20,000 nucleotides of DNA from Chiloscyllium plagiosum. Lineage: Eukaryota. Below are positions 1,687 to 20,000 of the stretch, in pieces. The stretch lies in assembly GCF_004010195.1 (NCBI RefSeq), contig NC_057718.1, positions 58,835,016 through 58,855,015 of the forward strand, read 5' to 3'. The notes below the pieces were generated by a model. It ran no database searches and was not told where the DNA came from. It worked only from the letters and a program-made list of their open reading frames with translations. Position 1 is the first letter of the stretch, and each line of letters begins with the position of its first letter. Both the position numbers and the translations under genes were made by a program.

Positions 1687-1783
1687 AATTCTGAAGACAA
1701 ATCATTCCGGACTCAAAACGTTAACTCTGTTTTTTGTCTCCACAGATGCTGCAGAAATGCTGAGCATTCTCTGTGATTGTGTC
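1687..1783 (+). mobile_element. Penelope-like pLTR fragment (family C) with decayed hammerhead motif
   Basis: AATT-CTGAAGA(1691-1697)-...-AAAACGTT-AACT, then CTCCACAGATGCTGC...TGCTGAG, which resembles the GATGCTGCC...CTGCTG block of the hairpin elements at 11255-11337 and 19931-20000. Confidence 0.6.
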
Positions 1784-2851: not shown

Positions 2852-4171
2852 CTCTTGTATAAGTTGATTCTCCACTTGGAAAGTCTTTCTGAAGTTGCGC
2901 GGTTACCTGTTTCTTCCAGATCATGGTTCAAATCCAGTTCATCTCAATATATATGAATGATTCTGATGGATTGAAATAAGATTCCTTCTATTTTGTCTTC
3001 TCGGTAACCTCTACTATAGGTATTAAGTAAGTTTTTTATTGTTTTGAATGATCAAACTTTCTCCATTTTGTTCACATATTCATACCTTTTGATTTGCAAC
3101 TTTGGTAAATGCTTAGTATAAGATATTTTATGAAAATTCTTGGTTTATTTCTGTAAAACTTCTCTTTGTCTCAAGCTGTGATAACCCTTGGGATGCAACA
3201 TTGATACCAATTTCTTAGTTAGAATAGAAACTTGGGCTTTGAGTTTTCTTTCATCAATAATTTAGAAAGTTCTAGTCCACATAGTGAGGGGGTGGGTATG
3301 TGGTTCAATAATGCCATTGAAAATTTTCATCCTTTTTAGAAAGTAACTTGATAATTCTGACTTCTTGTTCAACTTTACCTTTAGTCTATATCTTGAGAAA
3401 TTGGTATTATGTTCAGATCCACTCTTTTCTACAAAGTACTTTAAATATTAATTTGCAAATTGTGGTTCTTTGTCAAAAACCACTTTATCTGGAAATTCAT
3501 GAGTTGCAAAAATCTCTTTCAATACTTTGATTACTATTTCTGCTATCATAGTATACAACTTTTTAATTTCAATCCATCCTGAAAAGTAATTAATGACCAT
3601 CAAACTTGACACATTGCAAATAAATAGATCCATTCTGAGCCATTCCCAGGGCCTGATTGGAAATTTAGTCTATGTTAACAGTTATTTGGTCAGCATGTTG
3701 TACACTTTCTTTCTTTAATATTATTTCATCAAACAGTGAATATCAGATGGATTTTTCTGCTACTGCCTTATTGATTTGTGTTAAATCTAAATACACTGGT
3801 AATATTAGGCATGGGAAGTGGAATATGCCAGAGAATCATTTGATTGTCTTTTTTGATTGAAGAAATAATTCCTGTTCTTGTCATCTTTTAACTCTCAACT
3901 AACTTCATTAATGGGAGTGATGAATTTTAGGCATATAAAGACTACAGTGTTAATATCTTTTCTCATTCTTTTTTGATGAAAGAATAGGCTTCAATATTCT
4001 AGGACCTTTAAAAATTTGAATGGTCTTTTCCAAAGTGACTGGACCTTTTGTTAGTTAACTTCTTTGACCTTCTGAATAAGATTCAGATCAATCCAGGCTG
4101 GTCCATCCAATAGTGGACAAAGTTAAAAATCACACAACACCAGGTTATATTCCAATAGGTTTATTTGGAGG

Positions 4172-4206
4172 TACTAGCTTTTGGAGTGCTGCTCCTTTGT
4201 CAGGTA
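4172..4206 (-). ncRNA. Decayed minimal type I hammerhead ribozyme motif
   Basis: Minus strand TAC-CTGACAA-A-GGAG-CAGCA-CTCC-AAAAGCTA-GTA. Stem I (TAC/GTA), stem II (GGAG/CTCC) and palindromic stem III (AGCT) are present; the cores deviate (CUGACAA for CUGANGA, AAAA for GAAA). Confidence 0.6.
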
Positions 4207-4399
4207 GCTAGCAGGGCAGGATCATAACAAACAGAATTTATAGCACAAGATCTAGTGTCATTCAACTATCTTAAACAACCCTAGATTGCTGTTAAGTCTT
4301 TCATCTTTTAGAATCAGTTGCAGGTTTTGATTCATTAATATGTAAAGCCCAGAACTTCTTTCAATACAATTCTATAAATGCAAATTTATCTCATAGACT

Positions 4400-4607
4400 T
4401 ATATGTGTGTGTACATGCATGTGAGGAAGAGAGAGAGAGAGAGAGTGCTTGTGTGTGTGTCTGCGTGCGTCTGTGTGTGTGTCTGTGTACTTGGTAGAGT
4501 GTGTGTTTGAGTGTGATGGAGTATAAGCCTGTGAGAGGGTGTGCGCATGTGTGTGCCTGTCTGAGAGAGAGCATGTGTATAAGAGAGGATCTGTGAGTGT
4601 GTGTGTG
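4400..4607. repeat. (GT)n/(GA)n-rich compound low-complexity tract inside the PLE
   Basis: Runs of GT and GA dinucleotides; homologous in reverse complement to 15887-16190 (e.g. GGAGTATAAGCCTGTGAGAGGGTG versus CACCCTCTCACAGACTTATACCCC). Confidence 0.9.
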
Positions 4608-4976
4608 CAGATACATTCTATTTTGCTCAAAAAACACACAATGTACAGGAAGTCAATGCAAGCGGTCAATCCATGTTACATTTTACAAATTCTTACTTTG
4701 GAAATAGAACCAGTCTGATGCAAGGTAGGAATACATATAGACTCTAACCTTACACCTTGGATGCATTGTCTGAGCTGAAATGTCACCCTTTTTATAAAAC
4801 CTTAAGTTATCTCAGAAAAGTGACTTGCAAGAGGTTCTGGGATTTACATATTAGTGAATCGAAACAAAGATGAAAGACAAAACAACAATCTCGGGTTGTT
4901 CAATATATCGTGTCAGTTGCATAACACTATGATCTTGTGCTGTAAATTCTGTGTCTTATGATCTTGCCCCACTAAT

Positions 4977-5011
4977 TACCTGACAAACGATCAGCACTCC
5001 GAAAGCTAGTA
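4977..5011 (+). ncRNA. Decayed minimal type I hammerhead ribozyme motif
   Basis: TAC-CTGACAA-A-CGATCAGCACTCC-GAAAGCTA-GTA. GAAA, the AGCT palindrome, the CUA triplet and stem I (TAC/GTA) are intact; the first core and stem II are mutated. Confidence 0.6.
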
Positions 5012-5113
5012 CCTCTAAATAAATCTGTTGGACTATAACAAGGAGTTGTGTGATTTTTAACATTGTACACCCCAGTCCAATACTGGCACTCCCCATCATG
5101 GCATCCAATGGTG

Positions 5114-5420
5114 AAAATTCTTGCCTGTGTAATAGGCCTGTGTAATAATGTTTGTTTTTAATGGTTGGTTGCCTCAATACCGCAGAGTTGCTTGTAGCAT
5201 ATCTTTGAATTTTAACTGAATTCCTCCCAGACGATATAACTCAATTTTTATTGTTTGTAAGCAGTGCTTTGCTAATTAAGACTTTATGTTCTGATCATTG
5301 CACTTGCTCCAGTATTAACTTGAAATTCATAAGATGTTTTTTGAGGTATGTGTCTGCATGGTAAAATATCTGGATCGTTGATGCCACCAAGGAAGATTTT
5401 TAATTCATCATTAGACAGGA
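5114..5420 (-). pseudogene. Gypsy aspartic protease remnant
   Basis: IFLGGIND followed by TTC AAG TTA -AT ACT GGA GCA AGT, which reads FKL(D)TGAS with a 1-nt deletion (ORF 5284-5505 shows ..NTGASA). After removing the PLE it continues QEFSPLDGPAWIDLNLIQKVKEV to ~4060. Confidence 0.75.
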
Positions 5421-5507
5421 TTGCTCTACTTTGTTGATACTGTGTGAAGACTTCGTTTGTATGTTGTTTCAATGTCAGTGTTCTGAAATTCTGAAAATAA
5501 CACATTT

Positions 5508-5944
5508 TCAGCTATCGGGAGAGGTTAAATAGGTTGGGGCTATTTTCCCTGGAGCATCGGAGGCTGAGGGATGACATTATAGAGATTTATAAAATCATGA
5601 CGGACATAGGGGTGAATAGCCAAGGTCTTTTCCCTAAGGTAGGGGAGTCCAAAACTAGAGGGCAGAAGTTTTATGTGAGAAGGGTAATATTTAAAAGGGA
5701 TCTAAGGTGCAAATTGTTCATGCAGATGGTGGTGCGTGTATGGAATGTGCTGCCAGAGGAAGTAGTGGAGACGGGTACAATTACAGCATTTAAAAGACAT
5801 CCGGCTGGGTATATCAATAGGAAGTGTTTAGAGAGATTTGGGCCAAATGCTAGAAAATGGGATTAGACGAATTTAGGATATCTGGTGGGCATGGATGAGT
5901 TGGACCGAATGGTCTGTTTCCATGCTGTACAACTCTATGACTCT
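5508..5944 (+). mobile_element. 5'-truncated CR1 LINE (HER1-like) 3' end inserted near the gag-PR junction of the Gypsy element
   Basis: ORF 5534-5866 GLFSLEHRRLRDDIIEIYKIM..SKTRGQ..VVRVWNVLPEEVVE..ITAFKRH is the CR1 ORF2 C-terminus; the 3'UTR ends CTCTATGACTCT. Confidence 0.95.
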
Positions 5945-6670
5945 TGCAATGAAAGTATTCAGTTTAAAGACAGAACACTGTTCATACCTGTTAAGCTTTC
6001 TGGTACCATTGTATTTGCAGGGAATTCTGATATTTTACACTAGTCTTCCCAGCTTTGTCTGCTTTTCTTGTGTTTCTTCCACTTTCTTGTCTTAAAGGGA
6101 AAAAATAGACTCTACAGATCACTGTACTGATCACTGTTCATCTCCTTTGAGGAATGACCTGTTCTGCTTTTGAACCTCTGCGCGCTTGACCAGCTGAGTG
6201 AGTTTCTCCAGTCTGAGGACTTCTTTTAACTATAATAAATTTGTCAAAGACTCATCAGAAGCACTCACAAACATGCAATCTGTGATTAATTCTGTCTTCA
6301 AATCTCCATATTCATCTCCTTCACAAGGAAATATCGTTAAGAAAATCATCTACTGATTCATGAGGCTTCTGGACTGTTGAGTGAATCTCGCTTTTTGCAG
6401 AATTTTATTCGTTCTGAAATTGGCATTATTAATTGAAGCTTTTAACACTTCCTCAAATTTGTCTAATATTTCAGTAACTCCTTGTTGAATAACCATGCTT
6501 CAAATTGTAGATGGAATTGTATTCTGTTTCAGTCTTGTGATCTAATTTTGAACCAGTTAGTTCTTATGTTTTATGTTCATTTCTGTATCTTAAAAATTTT
6601 GTCATGTAGAATTTCCAATTTGTGTCTGATGAGAGCCATTTCTGTTGTTAAATCTTCCTGGGCAATGAGA
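5945..6670 (-). pseudogene. Gypsy gag remnant
   Basis: Frameshifted minus-strand translation: PGRF..KFLRYR..SKLDHKTETE..DKFEEVLKA..KILQKARF..EYGDLKTELITD..SDESL, the pattern of fish Gypsy gag; Cys-containing knuckle remnants near 5945-5990. Confidence 0.7.
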
Positions 6671-7189
6671 ATTCAATGCAATATTTTGTATACTTTCCAG
6701 ATATTCTTATTCATTTTTTAAACCTTTTTTTCAGTAAATGAAGATTGCCAACATCTTTTTTCATGATAATTGAAGTTTTCTAATGCTTCCGAGTCTCACC
6801 ATTACTCCCAGTGCAGAATTTATCCCTTTGAGAAAATCTTTCCTCAGTATTGGAATTTCATTTTTGACACTGAGAAACAGTTTAAATCAGCTTCCCCAAT
6901 TTTTCTTCACATCCTTTTCCCTGTGTTTTGTGTTCCTGAAATATCTCATTTTCATGGTTCTGTTTCTTTTCTCTTTCTCTATGTCTCATGGTTGCTGCAA
7001 ATAATGGTGGTCAATCGGTCAGAGCTGTGAAATTTTCAAAATTGCATCACCTTTCAGGTTGTTCCATGATTTGAGTTTTTCACCCACGTCGCAGATTTTT
7101 CACCCAATCCTTAATTGCTTTTCAGTTCACCGTCTCAAAGCTGGATTGCAAAAACTCAATTTTGACTGAGGTAATGTGGTCTACACCAC

Positions 7190-7514
7190 TGTCTTGGAGC
7201 CCCTCAGGTTCTTCTTCTGTGTCTCTATTTAAGGTCTGACCCACTTTTCATTCTGCTGTGATTTTCTTCTTCAAATGAGAGTTCATCTTGTTGTCAGTAC
7301 AATGAGTTTAGTTGAAGACCCACTGCTGCCAATGCTGCTGCCAGGATGCAGTGGTTTGTTGTGAATGTGGACAATCTGCCTCATTGGTCTAATTAGTAGA
7401 AATCTTGACAGTTGCTTAAAGTAAACAATAAGACATTTATTGGTTCCCCCTACATACAAGTTACATTCATAATTCCAGCAGTGCTGCATTCCATATCTTC
7501 ACAGACCGACTGCA
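7190..7514 (-). repeat. Candidate 5' LTR of the Gypsy element, followed by a PBS-like site
   Basis: Minus strand starts TGCAGTCGGTCTG (7514), has AATAAA (~7435-7440), ends ..AAGACA (7190) and is followed by GTGGTGTAGACC (TGG-type PBS candidate, 7178-7189). Partial similarity to 1786-1871. Confidence 0.4.
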
Positions 7515-7954
7515 TGTGTCTAAAATCATCACAGTGCATGGTATCTCTTCCAGATATCTTTTAGATCCATACTCGGTAGATGCTACTCAAGACTGCTAGG
7601 CCTTCAAAACAATGATAAATCCCAGAAAAGCTGTGGCAGAGATTTTGCAGCATCCTTCAGGCAGGGGAAAGTTTCACTCCATTAGTCTTCCATGTCTTGT
7701 ACAAAGTCCAACAAATCATGGCTTTGGATATAAATTTCAACCTGACCTGAACTGGGCACAATGTGACGTCCATCAGCTTTAAATGGCAAAACTGACACTG
7801 AGGGTACAGAAGCCCGCCTCTCATTGTATGTAGCCTTGCACTAGTGCCAGGATTTCATGTAAACATCAACATAAGCTTAATTTGAGGCTTTCAGGAATAT
7901 TTTCTGTTTCCTTTGTCCTTGGGATTCTGATATAATGTACACTGACGGTTGGAT

Positions 7955-8063
7955 TAGACAGGGAAAGGTGCTGGCAGGAATGTGGAGTTAAGTTCACAAT
8001 CAGATCAATCATGTTCTTATTGAAAGACTTAAGCAGCCAAGTGGGCTACTTCGTATGTTCTTA
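7955..8063 (+). mobile_element. Old CR1 3'UTR fragment
   Basis: GGCAGGAATGTGGAGTTAAG..CACAATCAGATCAATCATGTTCTTATTGAA..TATGTTCTTA resembles shark CR1 3' ends (family recalled, not searched). Confidence 0.6.
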
Positions 8064-8830
8064 ACGTCAAAAGATCAAGATAATTGAGCAGTCACATGTT
8101 CGTGCACAGTTACTAGAAGTGCCTATGAAGTTGACTTCCAGCAATACATTATAGAATTCACTTCCATCTGAGTTTGCAGAAGACTCTTAAGAGATAAGTG
8201 ACTCAATAATCTTGGTAAACATCACAGTGTTGAATTTCTTTCTTATCTGGAAGGATAATCTCTTTCCTGCAAACACTGCATTGGTCTACCTATTGACTTA
8301 TTTCTGGAGCAATCCTTATGCAGCTTCCTCACACTCACAGACAGAGCACCTTCTTAGTATTACCTCCGCAGCAAACTCTGGGTGAGTCTTTAAGAAAAGG
8401 AAGCAGCCACCCCTCCCTGCCGTTAATGGAAAGACTTATGGCTTCTCTCAGCACACTGCTGATGAAGAAGGGCACAATTCAAGAATAGTGCAAAACTATC
8501 ACATTTACGCTACAGCTCAGGGATTGGACTCCCCACTCTTTCCACAGGAGGCAAAATTAAATGAGACATAGCAGGAAATGTCTGGTGAACAACAACATGT
8601 GCAGAAAGCACTAAGATAAAGATTAAATTTATGCTGCTGAAGCCAGAGAGAAATTTCAGTTCTTGCATGCTGTGCCAGGCAAAATGCATTCCTGGAGTAA
8701 AATTGTCCATTTTGATTCTGAATTAATGTGAATTTTGTTGTGGGTGTGAATTTGAAAGGTGCTATATTGAGATTTCCCAACCTGATTATACCCTGTAGGA
8801 ATAGAGAAAATTAAGAAGGTATTTTCTTTC

Positions 8831-8899
8831 CATCCAACTGGTTGAATTTGAACCTAACTGTGAAAGGTCAATGTGCTAACCATTTTGACCACCCAGTTC
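8831..8899 (-). mobile_element. Degenerate tRNA-derived SINE head
   Basis: Minus strand TGGTCAAAATGGTTAGC (A-box-like) and GGTTCAAATTC (B-box-like) at tRNA-like spacing. Confidence 0.35.
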
Positions 8900-9134
8900 T
8901 GTATTTAATTGTTCACTGTGCTTTGTTGGAAAATAATATTTGCCTGTGAAAACACTCAAATTAATTCACTTTTAATACTCTTTACAAATGTTTGTCCTTA
9001 TTGGTGAAATATATTCTTTACCCTAGATTTTGTCTTCAATATTATTTCAGTTTTGCTGGTGTTCATAAATTATTAGCGAAACAAATTATAATGTTCTCAT
9101 TGAAGGGGAATTTGCCTTCAGAAAATGTTTTTTT

Positions 9135-9454
9135 TAGATTAGATTAGATTAGATTACAGTGTGGAAACAGGCCCTTCGGCCCAACAAGTCCACACCGACC
9201 CGCCGAAGCGCAACCCACCCATACCCCTACATTTACCCCTTAGCTAACACTACGTGCAATTTAGCATGGCCAATTCACCTGACCTGCACACATTTTTGAC
9301 TGTGGGAGGAAACCGGAGTACCCGGAGGAAACCCACGCAGACACGGAGAGAACGTGCAAACTCCACACAGTCAGTCACCTGAGGCGGGAATTGAACCCAG
9401 GTCTCCGGCGCTGTGAGGCAGCAGTGCTAACCACTGTGCCACCATGTCGCCCAC
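9135..9454 (-). mobile_element. Full-length HE1-type (V-SINE) tRNA-derived SINE
   Basis: Minus strand: A box TGGCACAGTGG, B box GGTTCAATTCC, V-domain GTGGAGTTTGCACGTTCTC..GCGTGGGTTTCCTCCGGGTACTCCGGTTTCCTCCCACAGTC, CR1-like tail GGGCCGAAGGGCCTGTTTCCACACTGT and about four AATCT repeats. Many CpGs are retained, suggesting a young copy. Confidence 0.95.
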
Positions 9455-9508
9455 TTTTGGTAGGCAAATGTTAGTATTATAGAGAATGGTTTAGCTGTTA
9501 CAGAATAT

Positions 9509-10036
9509 TGTAGTAAGTGTAGCAAGGTCATCCAGGTGGTCCTCATGGTGTCAATGAAATCCAATTACTCTGGACTGATTAAAGTAACTTATATTTAACA
9601 CTCCCAGTAGGGATGCATAGTTCTACCATGAATGTTATCTTCGAAATTTAAACTGTGGTTAGTCATCATGCAGTTAAAAAAACACTGAGTAGCCTATACC
9701 ATCGGTGTCAGATTCAAGGAACAGCAAGAAGTAAAGTTTAATGTCAGTAGAAGTGAAATTGACTAATAATATACTGCCATAACTATGCATCGTCTGCATG
9801 ATCTTTGGAAAGGACTGGATTTGATGCAAGAAATTAACTTCAGATAATTTCTTATATTCTGAAATAACAAATTGGTTAATCAGGGAGCCCTGGCTGATAG
9901 ATAAGAAGAGGAGTGTCAGACATCCTGTTCACTCTGAGAATTGGCTAAGAAGGAACTGGATCAGTGTCAAGGACTCTCCACATGTAAATAAAGGGTGACG
10001 AGATGATGGGACACTGGTCTCTGTGGAGCTATTGCA
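9509..10036 (+). mobile_element. Short solo LTR (~200 bp) split by the 328-bp inverted-duplication segment
   Basis: 5' piece TGTAGTAAG..GGTCATCCAGGTGGTCCTCAT (9509-9546). 3' piece AATCAGGGAGCCCTGGCTGATAGATAAG..AATAAA(9987-9992)..GGAGCTATTGCA (9875-10036). TG..CA termini; flanks AATAT/ATTAT are an imperfect TSD. That both pieces belong to one family is recalled, not searched. Confidence 0.55.
9547..9874. repeat. Left arm of a long inverted duplication
   Basis: Reverse complement of 10572-10898; manual alignment gives about 27 differences in 328 bp (~92% identity). Confidence 0.97.
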
Positions 10037-10571
10037 ATTATAATTATATATCCCTTATTACAAGTTCATGATTTAGACAGTGCTATCAGGGAAATTCACA
10101 AGTGGAGGGCAGCTGCTTCCCACAGTGGGCTGACATCACTTGACACCCATCAGAAAAAGAGCACAGGGACACATTGCTCATCTGTACTTTGATCCTAGGA
10201 CTGGTACAGCAAGGCTAGGGAGCAACTAAATAAAGGTGATTAAAATAAAAATAAAATGTTTAGATAAATGCATTAAATTACAACAATCCAAGTTATTATT
10301 TAGAGAGCACAAACAAATAAAGATCGATTACTGTCATGAACTGTTATGATTTATGTAAAACAGCCCTCTGCTTTCTATTCTATTCCATTCTACAGTGAGA
10401 AACATAGCTTGCAGCTACAGCAAGCGGAGCGGTCTTGTGGGGAAATAAATAACTTATATTTTAGTAAATTATTTGAGGCAAGAGAGAACCCCTGAAAATG
10501 CTCCACAGATCTTTTCTGTATTCTCTTACTAGTGAATTGCTTCTGTCAATAGAGAAACTGCTGGATATATT

Positions 10572-10898
10572 CAGTTTGCTATTTCAGAATATAAGAAGTG
10601 ATCTGAAGTTAACTTCTTGCATCAAACCCAGTCCTTTCCAAAGATCGTGCAGATGGTGCATAGTTATGGCAGTATATTATTAGTCAGTTTCACTTCTCCT
10701 GACATTAAACTTTACTTCTCACTGTTCTTTGAATCTGAAACCTATGGTATGGGGTACCTAGTCTTTTTTAACTGCATGATGACTAACCACAGTTCAAATT
10801 TCGAAGAAAACATTCATGGTAGAACTATGCAGCCCTCCTGGGAGTGTTAATTATAAGTTACTTTAATCAGTCCAGAGTAATTGGATTTCATTGACACC
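10572..10898. repeat. Right arm of the long inverted duplication (probable donor)
   Basis: Reverse complement of 9547-9874, separated by a 697-bp spacer. Confidence 0.97.
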
Positions 10899-11165
10899 TT
10901 AATGATCCCAACTAAGTGGATCTATCATGTCTCATGTCTTGTCAGATTCACTGTGTCTGCCTATCCCACATGTCTTCAATCTACTTCTTATCTGTGATAT
11001 ATCCAACTGCTTATCACATCAAATGCTGCTGTTAGATTGGGTAGTATAGATTCTCCATCAGAATATAACTCCTTTCAGATGTCTGCATCAAGCTCAGTAA
11101 AAATAGAAGCTCATCAATAACTGTCAGTCTTGGAGAGAATTGAGACCTGGGTGAGTGGTGACCAG

Positions 11166-11372
11166 AGTTGAAACTTTATTGCTGGAACAGCGCAGCAGGT
11201 CAGGCAGCATCCAGGGAACAGGAGATTCGACGTTTCGGGCACAGGCCCTTCTTCGGGCCTGTGCCCGAAACGTCGAATCTCCTGTTCCCTGGATGCTGCC
11301 TGACCTGCTGCGCTGTTCCAGCAATAAAGTTTCAACTTTGATCTCCAGCATCTGCAGACCTCACTTTCTCCC
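11166..11372 (+). mobile_element. 207-bp Penelope-like fold-back mini-element (family A): perfect 83-bp hairpin + 35-nt tail, 14-bp TSD
   Basis: Arms 11166-11248 and 11255-11337 are exact reverse complements around a TTCTTC loop. Tail at 11338-11372. TGAGTGGTGACCAG is duplicated exactly at 11152-11165 and 11373-11386. Each arm contains the hammerhead half GGGC-CTGT-GCCC-GAAACGTC-GAAT. Confidence 0.9.
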
Positions 11373-12119
11373 TGAGTGGTGACCAGTGAAATGAAGAAGC
11401 ACCATTCTGTAATGTTTTAAGACAATGTGAAGGTAAGTAAACTAATCATTGCTTCTTAAACAAAAACAGCAGCACAGGTCACAGTATACTTTAAAGGGAT
11501 AACATCCACAAATACTATTTTAATTATTGGCAAGGCCAACTATAAATGAGCACATGCAGCCTTTAAAAGTAAAGAAGGGTAAGAGAGATAGGAGACTGTA
11601 AAAGGGGAGAAATTATAAGAAAATAAACAAAATACAATAAATCATGGTCTACATCAGAAAATAAGCCTGGACAAGCAGTACACAATATGGCTGAGTGAAG
11701 TACATCCATATAAGGAAACAGGAGTGTAGAAAGGAAACATTAACGGAAGGAGGAGCTGTTATTTGTATTGGTCAAGAATGTCAATTTATATAGTACCCGT
11801 AGGTTAAAGGTTATTAACATCACACAATACAGTCAGCAGTTAATTAGTCTGTAGAGACCATTGGATAGCTTACGACAGTCACGCGTAATAAGCAAAAGCT
11901 TAGATGCTGGGGTAGATGTTGAGAACATATAAGCCCTGAAGATAACATGGACATCAAAGTCATGTTGGAATTAAGAGGACCTAGCATCTCGCAATAAAAT
12001 AAACTGCATCTTGTTATTGCAGTAAAGGATTAGCATAAAAGTGAAAATATATAAATACACTCAATTTCTTCAATACGAATTGGCTTTAATGCAATTGAAG
12101 TATTTAGACCACTATTTGT

Positions 12120-12869
12120 AGAACACACATATTCCTTACCTGCATTGGCGATAATGCAGTTCCGGCCCCATTAGTTTAAATGGCATGGCAATTGCACGAT
12201 TTTCTCAAAGCATGAGAAAGCTTGAGAACGGAACTATTGCGTTATTGAATTGAATTTATTGTCATGTGTACCGAGGCACAGTGAAAAGCTTTGTCTTGTG
12301 AGCAATACAGGCAGATCACAGAGTTAAATAGCATAGAAAAGTAAATAATAGGTAAACAGCGGCAAAGACAAAAAACACAGGTACAGGTGAATGTTAAGAG
12401 TTTGTGAATCCATTCAATATTCTAACAATAGTATGATAGAAACTTTTTTTGAAACCGGCTGGTGCATGTGTTCAGGCTTCTCTACCTTCTCCCCTGATGG
12501 TAGAGGTTGTAGAAAAGCATTGCCAGGGTGGGATGGATCATGGAGAATGCTGGCGACCTTTCCTTGACAGTGGGCCTGGTAGATGGGTTCCATAGATAGA
12601 AGGTTGGCTTTTGTGATTGTCCGGGCTGAGTTCACCACTCTCTGTAACTGTCTCCAATTTTGAATGGCACGGTTACCATATCAGGTGGTGGTATATCCAG
12701 ACAGAATGCTCTCGATGATGCACCTATAAATGTTGGCAAGGGTATTTGCCATTATGCCGAATTTCCTCAGCTGCCTGAGGAAGAAGAGACGTTGTTGGGC
12801 CTTTGTAACCAGTGCGTCCACATGAAGAGTCCAAGAAAGCTTGTTGTTGATGATCACTAACCGATTGTA
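12120..12869. mobile_element. Possible Tigger/pogo-like DNA transposon end, interrupted by the Rex1 LINE
   Basis: GAACGGAACTATTGCGTT (to 12243) joins across the LINE to AACCGATTG-TA (12859-12869), resembling a CAGT..-type TIR end with a TA target. The other TIR is not clearly found (TACAGTCAG at ~11828 is a weak candidate). Confidence 0.38.
12244..12858 (-). mobile_element. 5'-truncated Rex1/Babar LINE
   Basis: ORF 12681-12929 contains LSWTLHVDALVTKAQQRLFFLRQLRKFG..YRCIIESILSG and ORF 12414-12638 contains ASILHDPSHPGNAFLQPLPSG, both hallmark Rex1/Babar RT C-terminal motifs. The 3' end reads GACAATAAATTCAATTCAAT. Confidence 0.92.
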
Positions 12870-15199
12870 TGTTGTTTTGAGTTGTAACCAGCAGAGTGTC
12901 GTGGAGCTTGACTCTGAGGACTCTCCCATGCTGCGTTGGAAAAGCTTGAAGAAAGTCCACCTTGTTATGATCTACTCATACTGAAGACTCAATTTATGCA
13001 ATTTCCTTCAACATAAGGTCAACATGTGTTTAAAGAAGAATTCAGAATGAAGTGAATATTGAATATAATCACCAATAATCAGTAAAGTTCTATAGAGCTA
13101 TAGAAATTACATAATATTGTATAAATAAGAGAATCATAGCTGAAAGAACAACATTTGATGAAAGCAGAATGAGCTAAGAATGTGTTACAAAAGCTTAACC
13201 ATTAGCCCAGACAGACATTAGAGTATTGAAATAATTGAGCCTCAGGGAAAATGCTGCTTGGTTGTCAACTCTGGCTTTCTGATCTCTTCTTTCAATGACA
13301 CAATGTTTATTTGCTTTGATAAAGAGGTTTCAAATGCTTGCAGTTTGTGTGACTGATTTTTAAAGGGTCAGAATGATCGACACTTGTTGTCTTTTACTAA
13401 AATAAGATTTTGTTAAAGAAAATGGGAATTAATCAATGAATGGCTTTCAAATGAATTTTAAATATACATATTATAATGATAGAGTTCACTGCTACTGTAC
13501 ACTCTGTTTAGGTGAATAGCTCTGGACATTCCACAGTCTGTCATGCTCTCCTCAAACCAAGTTGCCTTGACTGCAACATCCAATCATTCTTTGCAATTAT
13601 TTCTTGCTTTTTCTTCCAAGATGGGCAAAAATATTCCATCCACTGATTTGTACTGTCCTAACAAAATCCACCTCTAACACTAATTGTCCAACAGAGCATG
13701 ATGTTTAAACAATGATGTTACAGCCCATTTTAACATGAACTATACACTTCAATGTCTTTTCTTAGCTACACATTTCAGCACTATCAGGGTACAGTGTTAG
13801 GCAGTGCATCTTAAATTACTAGCTCTTAGTCAGTTGTGCTCAATGAGTAAAACAGAGATTATCTGATAAAGCATATTAAAAAAAAATCTTTAAGGAGTTA
13901 GGTTCTTTGCATTTGAAGGAAGGCGAACTATGTCATAATCATTCTGTGCTTAGACATCCCACACATTTCTCAGACATCCGCTTTTATAAGATAATAGGAA
14001 CTATGTTTTTGCATTTCCATTAAATTCAAAATAACACATTAAGCACACTTGCTATTTCAAACAATTCAACAAGCTTTTAGTACCTTATTAAAGTACAGTT
14101 AAACACTGTTAACCATTCATCTGAGGAGCTGAGTGGCTGCCCACTCCAGGGCCACTATAATGAAACAGAAGGAATCCATTTGGTACATATCGTGTCCATT
14201 GAAACCACTCTTCTCCCATTCCTTTTATGAATTGTTAATGTTCCATGAGTAATTGATTGAAGCTGCCCTGAGTATCCATCTTCCAGTTCCTACAATGTTA
14301 ACAATGTGAATAGCTGAAGGAAACTTCAAGCAACTTTGGGCAGTGGTTTATTAAAGACAGTTAATCATTTGTTTCTGGTTATATAAAATATTATTAAGTA
14401 TAGAGAGGCCAGAGAGTTACATATTATAAATAAGCACATTAAACAGTATGTAGTAAAGGACTAGATTATTTAAAGTTCATTTATCAACAACAACAAAAAA
14501 AATCATTTTCACAATGTAACGTGATTTTTTTCATAACTGCAATTAATCGACATTACGTTATCCTGTGACGAGACTTTAAATTAAAAGACTGTGTGACTCC
14601 TGGTCTTCACCTATGGTAACTTGCGCAGCTTATGGTCGAAACACTCCAGCCTGATAACTTTATGAACAAAAGGCATGACCTCAATAAGTTGAGGCAAGAT
14701 CAGGGTTTGGACCTGGGTCTCATATTTTCAGTTTAGGGTTTGCCATTTGCACCCCATCTTTTCTGAACTGAAATTGAGCTGGGTCCTGTGGCTGAGCAGT
14801 TCTCACACTGCTTCCTTTTTTTACCCTTCTGGTTTATACTGGGCACTGCAGGGGGGGCAAACAGCATGGTGCTGATGCCATGTATTTCAACTAATCCATT
14901 CTTCCTAAAGCTGTGCTGAATAATTTGACATTTAGACTTAGACTCATGTGTGTCGAGAAATGCATGAGACAGACAAAGCACATGCTTAAACCTGTTTTCT
15001 GTAGCTTGCTTTATTCTTTGAACTGGACTCTAGCCTGAAGCCACAGGCTATACCTAGATTGGTGCCATTCGACATCAAACATGACTGACCAGGAAGTACT
15101 TCAGCTTTTTCCACCTGACACAGTTATGTTAGAAGGGCTACAGTTTGAGAATCATCCTGTTTAGCCACATTATGTGCATACCTTCAACTGCAATTGGGT

Positions 15200-15266
15200 T
15201 ATGGAGCAGGACTCGAAACCAGAGCATCTGATTCAGAGGTAGGAATTTGCAACCCACTCAACCACA
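15200..15266 (-). mobile_element. Degenerate tRNA-derived SINE head
   Basis: Minus strand TGTGGTTGAGTGGG (A-box-like)..CCTCTGAATCAGA..GGTTTCGAGTCC (B-box-like, 15209-15220). Confidence 0.45.
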
Positions 15267-15861
15267 TATCCCTTACTGAGTTATTTTAGTGCAATTTAAA
15301 TGATGGCATTTGAACACCAGAGCAAACAGAGTGACAGACACTCTCGAATCTTTACTGGTGAAGGAGACCAAGATGGGGGATGCTGTGTTTATGTAAGGAG
15401 GCAGTAAGTCTTTGAACAATCCTCAGAAGGGTTGGAAAAGCAGGAAGACAAGGATATAAATTCCTGTTCTCAATATCCAAAGCCCTGACAGTAATGCTCT
15501 GCAGAGTTTAATGACTTCATGTGCAAGGTGAATTTTCACAAGACTTCTCCACAACACCACTCTCTCACGCTGCTCTATGGACCATATTCCCATTGCTCAT
15601 CCATCATCAGTATCTAATACCCAAGATTCAACATCCCAGGGCTCCACATTGCCCTCACCCACTTACCATTGCTTTCAATCCTACACCCATCCCTTTCTAT
15701 CTCCACATGCTTCCAGCTATTCAACTATGTCAGAAACATTATCCGTATCCTGGTGGTGCACAATCATAGCATTCTAGCCTCTGTCTTCAGCTCATGGAGG
15801 CACACAATAAGAAGAAAGGAAAGCGGAGCCAACAGAAAACAAGAGTGTCTGTGTGTTCTGA

Positions 15862-16591
15862 CCACAGGTGACCCCATTGCACTATACACACACACAGACA
15901 GACACACACAGACAGACGGACACACAGACACTCTTACATGCACACAGACACTCCTATACACACACACAGACTCCAATACACACACAAACCCCTGCAGACC
16001 CATACATTCACACAGACCCTCTCTCATACACTCACACATACACTCCCACACTCACACATGCACCCTCTCACAGACTTATACCCCTTCACAGTCACACACA
16101 TGCACATACACACTCTCGCTCACAGACATTCATACTCGCTCCCCCACCACCTCCCTCCCACCCCCACACACAGATGCACACATACACATAAACATTTGTG
16201 GGGTGAACTTGTACTTGCAGAAATACATTTCCTATTGCTGAAAAACTGCATGATTCCATGTAAGATTCTGTAAATCCAGTTTTTAGATTAGAATCAGTCT
16301 GACCATTGTGGCACAGACAGTCTCACACAGGGCAGCTCACAACTTAAGTGCATTATCTGGGCTGACATGACACCAATTGTTCTCACTTTTGCGATTTTGC
16401 GATTTATATATGGAAGAACTGAAACCAACATGTTTATTCTAAAAGATGAGAGACTTAACAAACAATCCAGGTCTTTTTCAATATATAATTTCAGTTAAAT
16501 CACACTGTAACCTTTTGCTATAAATTCTGTCTTAAGATCTTATACTCCACAACTACCTGAGGAAGGAGCAGGGTTGTGTGATTTTTAACTT
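15862..16591 (+). mobile_element. Penelope-like pLTR insertion (family B relative), direct orientation, 12-bp TSD
   Basis: Collinear similarity to 4607-5066 (TAGAATCAGTCTGA, AAAGATGAGAGAC, TAAATTCTGT, TACCTGA, GTTGTGTGATTTTTAAC), preceded by a CA-rich tract. TGTGTGTTCTGA occurs at 15850-15861 and 16592-16603. The hammerhead is truncated after CTGAGGA-A-GGAGCAG (16557-16571). Confidence 0.78.
15887..16190. repeat. (CA)n-rich compound low-complexity tract inside the PLE
   Basis: Interrupted CA/CAGA/CT runs. Confidence 0.9.
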
Positions 16592-17694
16592 TGTGTGTTC
16601 TGAGCCTGACAAAGGACACGCCTTTCACTGTCATGGATGTGGTAGTGACCAAGCCCATGCCATCCCGCATCACTGAGAAAATATTCCTGCCTTATGTTCC
16701 TTCATGACTCCCAGAACATTTTCATCTAGCTATTTGGCTATCTGGCCATGCAGAAAGAGCCTCAAAATGCCTTTCACCACAACAAAGTGGCACCAGGCCA
16801 AGGGCATAGTGTCAGTAAATTTCACACCCTCAGTGTTAAACAAATTGCACTTCAATACATTGCTTAAAAGTTAAAGCTTAGTGAGGTTATAGGTGTGTTA
16901 AATTAGATATTTTTAATGCTGCATTTTGTTGAATCATGGGAACTACATGCTCACTAATATTAATAGCAATCAGGGTATGAAAACTCAATAATCATTTTTG
17001 TTTTGCATCAATGAGTCTGGTGCATCTAATACCCATTGAGGGCAAATCATGTTAATATGAATGCACCCATTATAGTGTGGGTGATATCCAAAATTAGCAG
17101 AATTAATTTAACAAGCCATGACCCTACATGGCCAATAAGGAACTTAAAAGTGAAATAAAGAGTAAATATAATCTTGACAAGTCTTGCAGAATAGAATGAG
17201 AAGGAGCTTAATGGCATGAAAGTTTTTAAAATGTTGAACCACAGGGTGATAACAATGGCAATCAAAGTGTGAAAAGAAAAAATAATTGTAAGGACAAAAG
17301 ATTTCAGTGAAATATTCATTCAGTGCCACAATATCGGGAAAACAAAAAGGAGATTTGGGGAGGGACTGAGTCAGCTGATGGATATTGGTCAATCATTTTG
17401 GGATGCATAGAATACTGAGGCTCCCAGAAGCCAAAGCTATTTCTGCATGTTTAGAATGCAATTATACAAGTATTTACACTGCTGCATGTGAAAATGGTCT
17501 TAACTGGAATGTAAGTGTGTATCCCTCCTGCCTCAGTGAACTCCAACATTATGAAGCTCTGGCTTGCTGCCGGGGAAGAGCTCAATATCATTCTCATGTT
17601 TAATTGGAGTCAGATGTGACAGGAACATGTTATAATGCACTGATACAGTATAAATACAGATAGGATTCATGCACTCAAACAATGTGCATGGATT

Positions 17695-17910
17695 AGCCTT
17701 GGTTCAGTTACAATTTCACTTCTGTGTTAGTCATTTGCGGATATCACCTAATCTGATATTTCATCACATTACCTGAGTGACCACTGCCTTGTTGTAGATG
17801 TCATCATTTGAATAAAGCATTAAACTGAAATGCCACTGGATTATGCATTGTGTAATTTCTTTTTAATTCCTGACATGATACCATTAGCATGTTTTCAGGA
17901 GACTTATGAG
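17695..17910 (+). mobile_element. Possible ancient Deu-domain SINE (SacSINE1-like) relic
   Basis: CTGAGTGACCACTGCCTTGTTGTAGATGTCATCATTTGAATAAAGCATTAAACTGAAATGCC resembles the Deu-domain block CTGCACTGTCGGAGGTGCCGTCTTTCGGATGAGACGTTAAACCGAGGCC (recalled), with an A-box-like TAGCCTTGGTTCAGTT upstream. Confidence 0.4.
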
Positions 17911-18629
17911 CATCTGCTGATACAGAATGGTAGCAGTGTTTTACAGATCACCCAGAAAATCTGTGACAACACATCTCTTTTACATACATGTTGTTGCATG
18001 AAGCTCTAGACAGTGATGAAAAGAGGTTCCTATTTTCTTTCGTACCTACCCACTTGTACCAGCTGGCATTAATACATACTGGAAGGGTTTGCAGACTAAT
18101 ATTTAATCTGTTTGGCAGCATTATAAACCCAGAGAATCTGTTCCAGAGGCAGTGAGGCTGATGTGTCATAAGAACTCCATAGAAATGTTGCAGACATTTG
18201 CTGGAAGACAAGTGGTAAGGCTTTGTTCAGACATCAAGTAATTTATTAGCTCAGTCATGAAGGGAATTCTGGTATTCATTAATACAGGATTCATAAAGTG
18301 TTGATAGTGCCTGCATCTGTAATTTTATTGAAAATTGCATTGTGCATTTTGTCCATTTAAGATGATTGTGCACACTTGTACAGCGACACGGAGTGTGCAT
18401 AGTAAGAGATTAATCCTAATAAAGGATCCAAGATCAGCTGCTCATACAGTTCTAATCTTAAATGCCTCTGGCTGACTATATAGGAGTTACCGACACAAGA
18501 GCTGTACAATGGTGGCAAGATGATGAAAGATAAGAAATATTGCATTCAGATATGAAAGGTTTAGCCTTTGAGATTTAGCAGCAGAAATGTTTTCATAACA
18601 GACAGAGTAGGAGTTTAGCATTTACAGAG

Positions 18630-19150
18630 ACAATTGGGGATGAGCCTACCCGTTGGGTCTCACCCATAGATGCATTAAGAAAACCCCGAGTGAGAACCAG
18701 AGTGGGACCAGTGTTCATATACAATGTCAATTTCAAAGCCCACAGCAAGAAAGGCACTTGACACCAATAATTAATGACATCATGGAGAAAGTGCATGGTG
18801 CGAGACACTTCAATGAACTTAACCTCAATGCAGGTGATCATCAAATTGAGCTTGCAGAAGAATTGAAGGATCGTACAGTATTCCCTACTTACGATAGACT
18901 TTTTTTCAATTCATGTGGAACAGCTGTGGAGTCTATTCAGCAACAGAGGATGTTCTGTAAATGATTCACTCTTGTACTTCCAGAACTTGAAGACAGACTA
19001 AACATCAGTGATGACGTTTTCATCCTTGGTTATGCTGAAACTGAACTTGAGATATTGCTAAGTGCATCTTCAAAAATGTAACCTTATCTTGAACAAAGCT
19101 AAGTGCTTCTGCTGAGAAATCAGAATCAAATACTTCAGTAAAACATTCAA
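18630..19150 (+). pseudogene. Gypsy reverse transcriptase fragment (separate decayed element)
   Basis: WVSPI motif (~18654). ORF 18653-18964 contains QERHLTPIINDIMEKVHGARHFNELNLNAGDHQIELAEE..TVFPT (cf. GA..FSKLDL..GYHQIEL..TAF.T). NISDDV at 19001-19018 is YxDD-like, and LILNKAKC follows at ~19083-19106. Confidence 0.88.
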
Positions 19151-19275
19151 CACTGAGCTGCCGAAATTTGAAGTCACTATAAACATTGCAGAGCCAACAA
19201 AGATGTAGGAAGTCTGTCACATAACAATAATTGTTTTATTCATGACCTCATTATATTATCTGAGTCCCAATGCAT

Positions 19276-19843
19276 TAGAGTCATAAACACAGAAACAGAC
19301 CCTTCGATCCAGCTCTTTCGCACTGACCAGGAATCCTAATCTGACCTAGTCCCTTTTGCCAGCATTTGGTCCATATCCGTCTAAACCCGTCCTAGTCATA
19401 TATCCATCCGGATGCCTTTTAAATGTGTAATTCTACCCATGTCCACCACATCCTCTGGCAGCTCACTCCATACACGCACCACCCTCTGCATGATAAAGTT
19501 ATCCCTCCAGTCCTTTTTTAATATTTCCCCTCTCACCTTAAACCTATGCCGTCTAGTTTGGACTACTCCAACCAAAGGAAAACAACATTGGCTATTCACC
19601 CTATCCATGTCCCCCGTGATTTTATAAACCACGATAAGGTCACCTCTCAGCCTCCAAAGCTCCAGGGAGTGAAGCCCCAGTTCTATTCAGTCTCTCCCTA
19701 TAGTTGAAACTTTCCAATCCAGGCAATATCTTTGTAAATCATTTCTACATCCTCTCAAGTTTAACAACATACTTTCTATAGAAGAGTAACTAGAATTGTA
19801 TGCAGTATGGTAAAAATGGCCTCACCAATGTCCTGTACACCTG
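19276..19843 (-). mobile_element. CR1 LINE 3' portion, interrupted by the hairpin element
   Basis: ORF 19396-19632 VYKI..TRRHRFKVRG..FIMQRVVRVWSELPEDVVD; tail ATGACTCTA; similar to 5508-5944. Confidence 0.95.
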
Positions 19844-20000
19844 AAAATGTGTTGCTGGAAAAGTGCAGCAGGTCAGGCTGCATCCAAGGAACAGGAGAAT
19901 CGACGTTTCAGGCATAAGTCTGAAGAAGGGTTTATGCCCGAAACATTGATTCTCTTGCTCTTTGGATGCTGCCTGACCTGCTGTACTTTTCCAGCAACAC
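19844..20000 (+). mobile_element. Second, older family-A Penelope-like fold-back element (runs off the window)
   Basis: Imperfect inverted arms ~19849-19918 and ~19931-20000, clearly homologous to 11166-11337 (TGCTGGAA..GCAGCAGGTCAGGC.GCATCCA.GGAACAGGAGA). Confidence 0.88.
19920..19951 (+). ncRNA. Minimal hammerhead ribozyme motif with intact catalytic boxes
   Basis: CTGAAGA-A-GGGT-TTAT-GCCC-GAAAC-ATT-GATT. CUGANGA, stem II and GAAA are intact. The opposite arm shows GAAACGTC, so stem III and the GUC site have decayed here through CpG transitions. Confidence 0.65.

What the first reader, a model, noticed from the sequence alone, without database searches (positions are those of the whole stretch)
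4116..20000. Shared system: hammerhead-bearing, non-coding Penelope fold-back mini-elements with a 35-nt tail and 12-14 bp TSDs
Seen: two families that differ in sequence (A: 11166-11372 and 19844-20000; B: 4116-5101) share one architecture - TSD, inverted copy, direct copy, unpaired tail, TSD. In both complete examples the tail is 35 nt (11338-11372; 5067-5101). All copies, plus 1687-1783 and 15862-16591, carry whole or partial CUGANGA/stem II/GAAA/palindromic stem III motifs. Established: Penelope-like elements (GIY-YIG endonuclease + RT) have pLTRs with minimal hammerheads, often insert with an inverted 5' pLTR, and have a short tail of roughly 30-40 nt. Inference: these are protein-less, retrozyme-like PLE products mobilised in trans, and at five copies per 20 kb they would be a major and probably under-annotated source of hairpins in this genome. 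Whether they are self-propagating mini-elements or just truncated products of full-length PLEs cannot be told from one window.
Basis: partly seen in the sequence, partly recalled or inferred. Interest (0 to 1): 0.8.

Follow-up and report, generated by a model that had tools for sequence, protein, structure and literature searches.

The report
Fold-back end stubs of Penelope retroelements
These mirror-image inserts with a one-sided 35-base tail and a duplicated landing site are real, and they are most likely cut-short end pieces of two very abundant Penelope-type jumping-gene families, a footprint already described for that class, rather than a separate self-copying mini-element.

Summary
The architecture is real. 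Both complete fold-backs (11166-11372, 4116-5101) have an inverted arm, a direct arm, a 35-nt one-sided tail and a 14- or 12-bp target duplication. A third duplication (12 bp) flanks the tail-less solo copy 15862-16591. No arm keeps an intact hammerhead (0 of 8).

The mini-element reading is weak. All seven alignable arms are cut at different 5' points. In public sequencing runs, other family-A copies run further upstream and restore the CUGAAGA core. Other family-B copies run into a shared open frame that stops inside the 15862 copy and resembles a GIY-YIG end (about 10 codons only, so not a domain test).

Inverted 5'-truncated pLTR plus 30-40-bp tail plus target duplication is the published footprint of endonuclease-positive Penelope-like elements. 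They are not retrozymes by definition: head-to-head, no tandem of intact ribozymes.

Each arm was likely primed separately from the two known reverse-transcription start sites (inferred). Side result: family-A RNA shows A-to-G changes at the ribozyme GAAA, likely ADAR editing. This scan had already noted the same thing 291 times on other DNA. Low interest.

The parts
11152..11165 (+). A1 left target-site duplication (14 bp)
   Evidence: identical to 11373-11386
11166..11254 (-). A1 inverted pLTR arm, starting at the tail-less site and reaching GAAGA of the hammerhead core (the CU of CUGAAGA is missing)
   Evidence: 83/83 complementary to 11255-11337, plus 6 unpaired nt
11255..11337 (+). A1 direct pLTR arm, starting at hammerhead stem II (no CUGANGA)
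11338..11372 (+). A1 unpaired 35-nt tail
   Evidence: family-wide sharp 3' end at 11371/11372 (558+256 contigs in X1, 508+232 in X4, unrelated flanks)
11373..11386 (+). A1 right target-site duplication
19842..19918 (-). A2 inverted arm (may start at 19839), ending in the stem II loop
   Evidence: 88% to A1 arm
19919..20000 (+). A2 direct arm with CUGAAGA, stem II and GAAA, one change in the palindromic helix III; cut by the window end
   Evidence: arms 61/69
4104..4115 (+). B1 left target-site duplication (12 bp, one mismatch)
4117..4610 (-). B1 inverted arm: tail-less start, decayed hammerhead (two core changes), about 160 nt shorter than B2 internally, reaching into the CA-rich region
4606..5066 (+). 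B1 direct arm with decayed hammerhead at 4980-5008; junction on a shared 5-nt word at about 4606-4610 (approximate)
5067..5101 (+). B1 unpaired tail (35 nt), ending in ATGG
5102..5113 (+). B1 right target-site duplication
15850..15861 (+). B2 left target-site duplication (12 bp)
   Evidence: identical to 16592-16603
15862..16591 (+). B2 solo direct copy: begins 7 nt before a TGA that likely ends the family ORF, CA-rich region, pLTR with 49-nt deletion of the hammerhead 3' half, ends at the tail-less site
16592..16603 (+). B2 right target-site duplication; its first 3 nt equal the next 3 nt of the element (microhomology)
1687..1783 (+). decayed direct copy of a third, A-related family; CUGAAGA kept, stem II and GAAA decayed; no duplication found

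Best explanation
These inserts are likely 5'-truncated end pieces (pLTR with a minimal hammerhead) of two high-copy endonuclease-positive Penelope-like retroelement families, each fold-back likely written in a single insertion event rather than copied from a fold-back master. Shown: head-to-head arms, one-sided 35-nt tail, 12-14-bp duplications, a different 5' break point in every arm, and longer relatives in the genome. Inferred mechanism: the element's GIY-YIG endonuclease makes a staggered cut 12-14 bp apart. One cut strand primes reverse transcription at the downstream start site (tail end), giving the direct arm plus tail. The other primes about 35 nt further in, giving the tail-less inverted arm. 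Both cDNAs stop early and are joined head-to-head, sometimes on a short shared word. A lone start at the inner site gives a tail-less solo copy such as 15862-16591. The hammerhead is a passenger here: it is cut through or decayed in every arm and would be zipped up in the long hairpin.
For: Geometry: 3 of 3 inverted arms begin at the tail-less site, 2 of 2 complete direct arms end at the tail end, and solo B2 ends at the tail-less site. Break points: the four A arms and three B arms all have different 5' ends within their family. In public runs, 101 joints at many other positions are listed for family A (15 shown), while the 3' end is sharp at 11371/11372. Longer relatives: family-A records continue past the A1 centre (63 contigs in X1; 285 and 123 reads in X21), one consensus restoring CUGAAGA. 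Family-B contigs continue before 15864 with one shared 30-nt sequence (40, 52 and 47 contigs in three runs, agreement 0.77-0.88). Read by hand, it is an open frame LNRDLG... ending at the TGA at 15869-15871, loosely like the GLN...G ends of PLE GIY-YIG domains in the supplement of PMC8557442. Literature: inverted 5'-truncated copy plus 30-40-bp tail (PMC8557442); inverted pLTR, 31-bp tail, 8-10-bp duplications (PMC3846280); tail equals the span between two RT start sites, both strands cut and extended, hammerhead not needed in vitro (PMC11167929); opposite-strand minimal hammerhead pairs 100-700 bp apart (PMC4209133).
Against: No RT or GIY-YIG domain was shown linked to either family. The link rests on about 10 codons for B, whose N-to-G spacing is one residue shorter than in the examples seen, and on nothing for A. 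Three protein searches with window translations gave no relevant hit. Both family-A junctions in the window fall within about 20 nt of the hammerhead core, which is not what random truncation predicts and could mean a short dedicated RNA template. Joints on a palindromic reference are hard to place (13,642 of 29,215 X1 records fit two places). Twin priming is not shown; PMC3846280 favours self-priming on an antisense template.
Confidence: 0.8

Rival explanations
1. A dedicated non-autonomous RNA (a short pLTR transcript starting just upstream of the hammerhead, or a fold-back master) is mobilised in trans and makes most short family-A copies, a SINE- or retrozyme-like sub-population.
For: Both A junctions lie at the hammerhead core or stem II. 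Summed contig depth is 5-6 orders of magnitude above the flank on the 3' 120 nt (not a copy number). Non-autonomous pLTR derivatives are described (PMC8557442; bioRxiv 10.64898/2026.07.22.740005).
Against: The two A junctions differ, many other joints exist, and relatives run further upstream. No head-to-tail array in the window. No arm has an intact ribozyme. In RNA run X21, 99% of laid reads run on into unlike sequence and no place with many starts or ends is listed (polyA single-cell library, about 2% read, so weak).
Confidence: 0.12
2. Same origin, but the inverted arm comes from one cDNA folding back and self-priming (or priming on an antisense template) rather than from a second priming at the other cut strand.
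For: A1's arms are 83/83 identical and its junction sits on the palindromic stem II. PMC3846280 argues for self-priming from palindromes at inverted junctions.
Against: Either arm can be the longer (inverted in A1 and B1, direct in A2). B1's inverted arm holds about 200 nt of upstream sequence that its direct arm lacks. Inverted arms stop at a fixed inner site that a solo copy also uses.
Confidence: 0.06
3. They are MITE-like cut-and-paste elements, or chance neighbours of two separate insertions.
For: Long terminal inverted repeats and no coding capacity.
Against: One-sided tail, 12-14-bp variable duplications enclosing both arms (0 of 3,000 by chance), ragged inner ends, solo direct copies, hammerhead-type cores.
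Confidence: 0.02

Closest known systems
Complex insertions of endonuclease-positive Penelope-like elements (Pen2a_Av and relatives, PMC3846280, passages read; PMC8557442 Fig. 2 legend and passages read)
   Same: Inverted 5'-truncated pLTR next to a direct one, optional 30-40-bp tail on one side, one target duplication around the unit.
   Different: Here the ORF is absent (extreme truncation), duplications are 12-14 bp rather than 8-10, and copy density is very high (five loci in 20 kb).
Poseidon of the green anole (PMC11167929, parts 1-2 of 4 read)
   Same: The tail is the stretch between two start sites; here the inverted and solo arms use the inner site and the direct arms the outer one.
   Different: That work is in vitro and, in the parts read, does not assign the two sites to the two arms of an inverted insertion. 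The clade of the present families was not determined.
Minimal type I hammerheads of metazoan PLEs (PMC4209133, parts 1-2 of 4 read)
   Same: CUGANGA, one extra base, stem II, GAAA and palindromic 15.2-16.2; pairs on opposite strands; most copies in truncated elements.
   Different: No copy in this window is intact, and stem II here is short (about 4-6 bp).
Non-LTR retrozymes (PMC7229834, passages; bioRxiv 10.64898/2026.07.22.740005, parts 1-3 of 5)
   Same: Protein-less, pLTR-related, type I hammerhead, long duplications.
   Different: Retrozymes are head-to-tail tandem units with complete ribozymes expressed as circles. These are head-to-head, with minimal and broken ribozymes.

Membership tests
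EN+ Penelope-like element insertion | pLTR with minimal type I hammerhead | tested here: met
   two near-perfect motifs against 0.05 expected; relatives restore CUGAAGA; none intact in the window itself
EN+ Penelope-like element insertion | inverted 5'-truncated copy adjoining the direct copy | tested here: met
   A1, A2, B1
EN+ Penelope-like element insertion | 30-40-bp tail on one end only | tested here: met
   35 nt in 2 of 2 complete fold-backs; absent in solo B2; sharp family 3' end
EN+ Penelope-like element insertion | variable-length target duplication and variable 5' truncation | tested here: met
   14, 12, 12 bp; 7 of 7 arms with distinct 5' ends; 101 joints listed
EN+ Penelope-like element insertion | family linked to an RT + GIY-YIG ORF | tested here: inconclusive
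   about 10 open codons with an LN..G-like motif upstream of family B; no protein hits; no genome held
EN+ Penelope-like element insertion | clade (Penelope/Poseidon, Neptune, Nematis) by RT phylogeny | not testable with these tools
   no ORF sequence obtained
Non-LTR retrozyme | head-to-tail tandem of two or more units, each with a complete hammerhead | tested here: not met
   no such array; 0 of 8 arms intact
Non-LTR retrozyme | canonical (not minimal) type I hammerhead | tested here: not met
   no Rfam hammerhead match to E=5; helix III is the loop-less palindrome
Non-LTR retrozyme | abundant circular RNA | tested here: inconclusive
   only polyA single-cell reads were laid, and one of the two runs gave no reads; no circular joint among the rows shown
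MITE / cut-and-paste transposon | symmetric terminal repeats and a fixed 2-9-bp duplication | tested here: not met
   one-sided tail, 12-14-bp duplications

The most novel reading that the evidence does not exclude
Family A multiplies largely from short RNAs that start just in front of the hammerhead. A dimeric Penelope enzyme copies such RNA twice, once from each cut strand at the two start sites, with the target overhang annealing to the start of the tail (7 of 10 bases match in A1), and so builds each hairpin anew. The resulting hairpin transcripts are edited by ADAR at the ribozyme's catalytic GAAA. This would tie the in vitro two-start result to the long-unexplained inverted ends and make these stubs a main dsRNA source of the genome.
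Probability: 0.3. Interest if true: 0.5.

Novelty: new member of a known kind. Interest (0 to 1): 0.22.

Why it matters
As a class it matters little: this is the published footprint of Penelope-like elements. Its use is as test material. Very young perfect copies such as A1 (83/83 arms, 14/14 duplication, probably polymorphic) record both priming sites and the junction. A genome-wide table of them could decide between twin priming and self-priming, an open question for this class. They may also be this genome's counterpart of inverted Alu pairs as editing substrates.

Tried and rejected

Pattern scans: 0 hits in viral contigs for a family-A and a family-B motif. The 48 metagenome hits for the family-A motif are chance: 0 of 48 extend beyond 23-28 nt.

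Protein searches with spurious translations, meant to catch read-through into a PLE ORF: none significant. Two low-complexity hits were unrelated. Eight window ORFs against Pfam gave no RT or GIY-YIG.

Rfam miRNA hits are generic hairpin matches far below the gathering scores. No tRNA was found.

No RNA holder was listed by the run search. Run X22 laid 0 reads (no test) and X21 laid only 2 reads on the B2 5' end.

Supplement searches found no shark names or motifs in PMC4209133 (file 1 could not be searched) or PMC8557442, no LNRD motif, and nothing in PMC11167929. Supplements of the bioRxiv retrozyme preprint, which covers one cartilaginous fish, are closed and may list these families. The recalled lead that 'Eulor' hairpin-tail repeats are Penelope-derived was not confirmed; PMC5753468 lists only UCON13 under Penelope. 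PMC12602865 gave nothing on structure.

Rejected: retrozyme membership, MITE origin, miRNA genes. A notebook figure of about 230 nt for B1's internal deletion was wrong; the alignment gives about 160 nt.
Full report
Setting. No genome is held for this window. Earlier AI notes of the scan call the genome a shark. I did not test this; the repeat content fits a cartilaginous fish by recall only. Population evidence comes from public runs laid on two stretches.

Observation. A1 (11166-11372) has arms 83/83 complementary, a 6-nt centre, a 35-nt tail and a perfect 14-bp duplication. B1 (4116-5101) has arms pairing from 4117 to 5066 (117/136 over the outer part), a 35-nt tail and an 11/12 duplication. 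A2 (about 19842-20000) is a fold-back of family A (arms 61/69) cut by the window end. B2 (15862-16591) is a direct, tail-less copy with a perfect 12-bp duplication and a 49-nt deletion through its hammerhead. 1687-1783 is a decayed relative of family A with no duplication found. Flank matches of 12 or more occurred in 0 of 3,000 random position pairs. The five loci make up 10.9% of the window.

Hammerheads. A descriptor with core, stem II and palindromic helix III finds no perfect motif and two with one change (19920+, 11256-; 0.05 expected from 40 shuffles). At two changes it finds four against 1.9 expected, including B1's inverted arm and one hit outside any element. The A1 'change' is really the junction, which removes the CU of the core. 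Rfam finds no hammerhead. So the families carry the minimal hammerhead of PMC4209133 (parts 1-2 of 4 read), but none of the 8 arms here is intact. In A1 and A2 the predicted fold is one long hairpin that would sequester the motif.

Mini-element or truncation product. Every arm has its own 5' end. A1's inverted arm is 6 nt longer than its direct arm, A2's is about 11 nt shorter, and the two junctions differ. B1's inverted arm reaches about B2 position 15992 but is about 160 nt shorter internally; its direct arm starts near B2 position 16216. Laid on A1, runs X1 and X4 gave 29,215 and 22,174 contigs. The 3' end is sharp (558 and 256 loose ends at 11371 and 11372 in X1, flank agreement 0.35). 101 joints are listed, and the 15 shown lie at other positions. 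Other copies run on upstream of the A1 centre, one consensus restoring CUGAAGA. Joint placement on a palindrome is uncertain, since about half the records fit two places. Laid on the 5' end of B2, 40, 52 and 47 contigs in three runs continue before 15864 with the same 30 nt. Read by hand this is an open frame LNRDLG... stopping at 15869-15871. It resembles the GLN...G ends of PLE GIY-YIG domains seen in the supplement of PMC8557442, one residue shorter. This is suggestive only: no RT or endonuclease domain was recovered, and family A has no ORF evidence at all. Against pure random truncation, both A junctions here lie within about 20 nt of the hammerhead core.

Ages. A1 is very young. In run X4 (another sample) the two flank contigs stop at the duplication and one has 16 unmatched letters beyond it; with the 14-bp duplication this gives the 30-letter overlap expected of an empty site (records 9 and 16; inferred, letters not printed). 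B2 is old: a contig of organism C holds the same flank and junction with 6 differences in 86 (record 9).

Mechanism. Shown: 3 of 3 inverted arms and the solo B2 end at the inner, tail-less site, and 2 of 2 complete direct arms end at the tail end. From the literature: a PLE protein cuts and extends both strands, starts reverse transcription at two sites whose spacing is the tail, is predicted to be a dimer, and does not need the hammerhead in vitro (PMC11167929, parts 1-2 of 4). Inferred: each cut strand primes at one site and the two short cDNAs are joined head-to-head. Microhomology at the inner site is 3 nt in B2, 3 nt in B1, 7 of 10 in A1 and not seen in A2, which is too few cases to weigh. 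PMC3846280 (passages) prefers self-priming on an antisense template. Searches for 'Penelope' with 'twin priming' and for PLE mechanism papers since 2023 listed no paper that by title or abstract applies twin priming to PLEs; I saw listings only. The two-start reading is also in earlier notes of this scan, which are not independent evidence.

RNA. Run X21 laid 2,130 of 12.96 million records read on A1, in both orientations; 99% run on into unlike sequence, as expected for copies inside other transcripts. No place with many starts or ends is listed. A-to-G changes appear at 11268, 11269 and 11270, the GAAA of the ribozyme, in 44/288, 68/296 and 75/317 reads (34-51 start places), against under 0.1% of DNA contig depth. 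They also appear at 11303 (59/671) and 11326 (60/544). This is likely ADAR editing of double-stranded family-A RNA. The RNA is from another individual, contigs drop rare variants, and one highly expressed divergent copy is not excluded. Editing of inverted repeats is general in animals (PMC5625713, listing only).

Comparison. The unit matches the typical PLE insertion of PMC8557442 (passages), PMC3846280 and the curation guide PMC8969392 (passages). It fails the definition of a non-LTR retrozyme, head-to-tail units with complete ribozymes (PMC7229834, passages; bioRxiv 10.64898/2026.07.22.740005, parts 1-3 of 5). It also fails that of a MITE. A search for Penelope elements in sharks (listing only) showed no paper on these families, and repeat databases could not be searched, so they may already be catalogued.

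Verdict. Real, ordinary, and already noted 291 times by this scan in at least 25 genomes. New member of a known kind; interest 0.22.

Noticed in passing
window 11267-11270, 11303, 11326 (RNA run X21): A-to-G changes in 9-24% of family-A RNA reads, under 0.2% in DNA contig depth, including the hammerhead GAAA; likely ADAR editing, no matched DNA.
   Followed up: partly
window 11152-11386: Run X4 flank contigs stop at the duplication, suggesting an empty allele and a polymorphic insertion (records 9 and 16; inferred).
   Followed up: partly
window 9540-10936: Another long inverted repeat (arms about 330-350 nt, 92%) around 697 nt of other sequence, with a possible 32-nt one-sided extension and a 6-bp duplication; no clear hammerhead core and no Pfam hit. 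Possibly a third fold-back family.
   Followed up: partly
window 15805-15890: The B2 insertion junction is shared with organism C (6 differences in 86), so it predates that split.
   Followed up: partly
window 5506-5920 (+) and 19292-19709 (-): Two copies (77% alike) of a LINE 3' end, CR1-like by recall.
   Followed up: no
window 6200-7300 (-), 12684-12971 (-), 3451-3669 (-), about 9139-9452: Decayed L1-like ORF1 (by recall), a LINE tail matching PF09004 (E 4e-11), a weak integrase match (E 0.03), and a SINE-like repeat (by recall).
   Followed up: no
family A and B relatives in runs X1 and X4: Some contigs show a tail repeated in tandem, or a tail end followed after 36 nt by an inverted-arm start, and a 45-nt unit at the B2 5' end repeated in tandem (tables 5c).
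   Followed up: no
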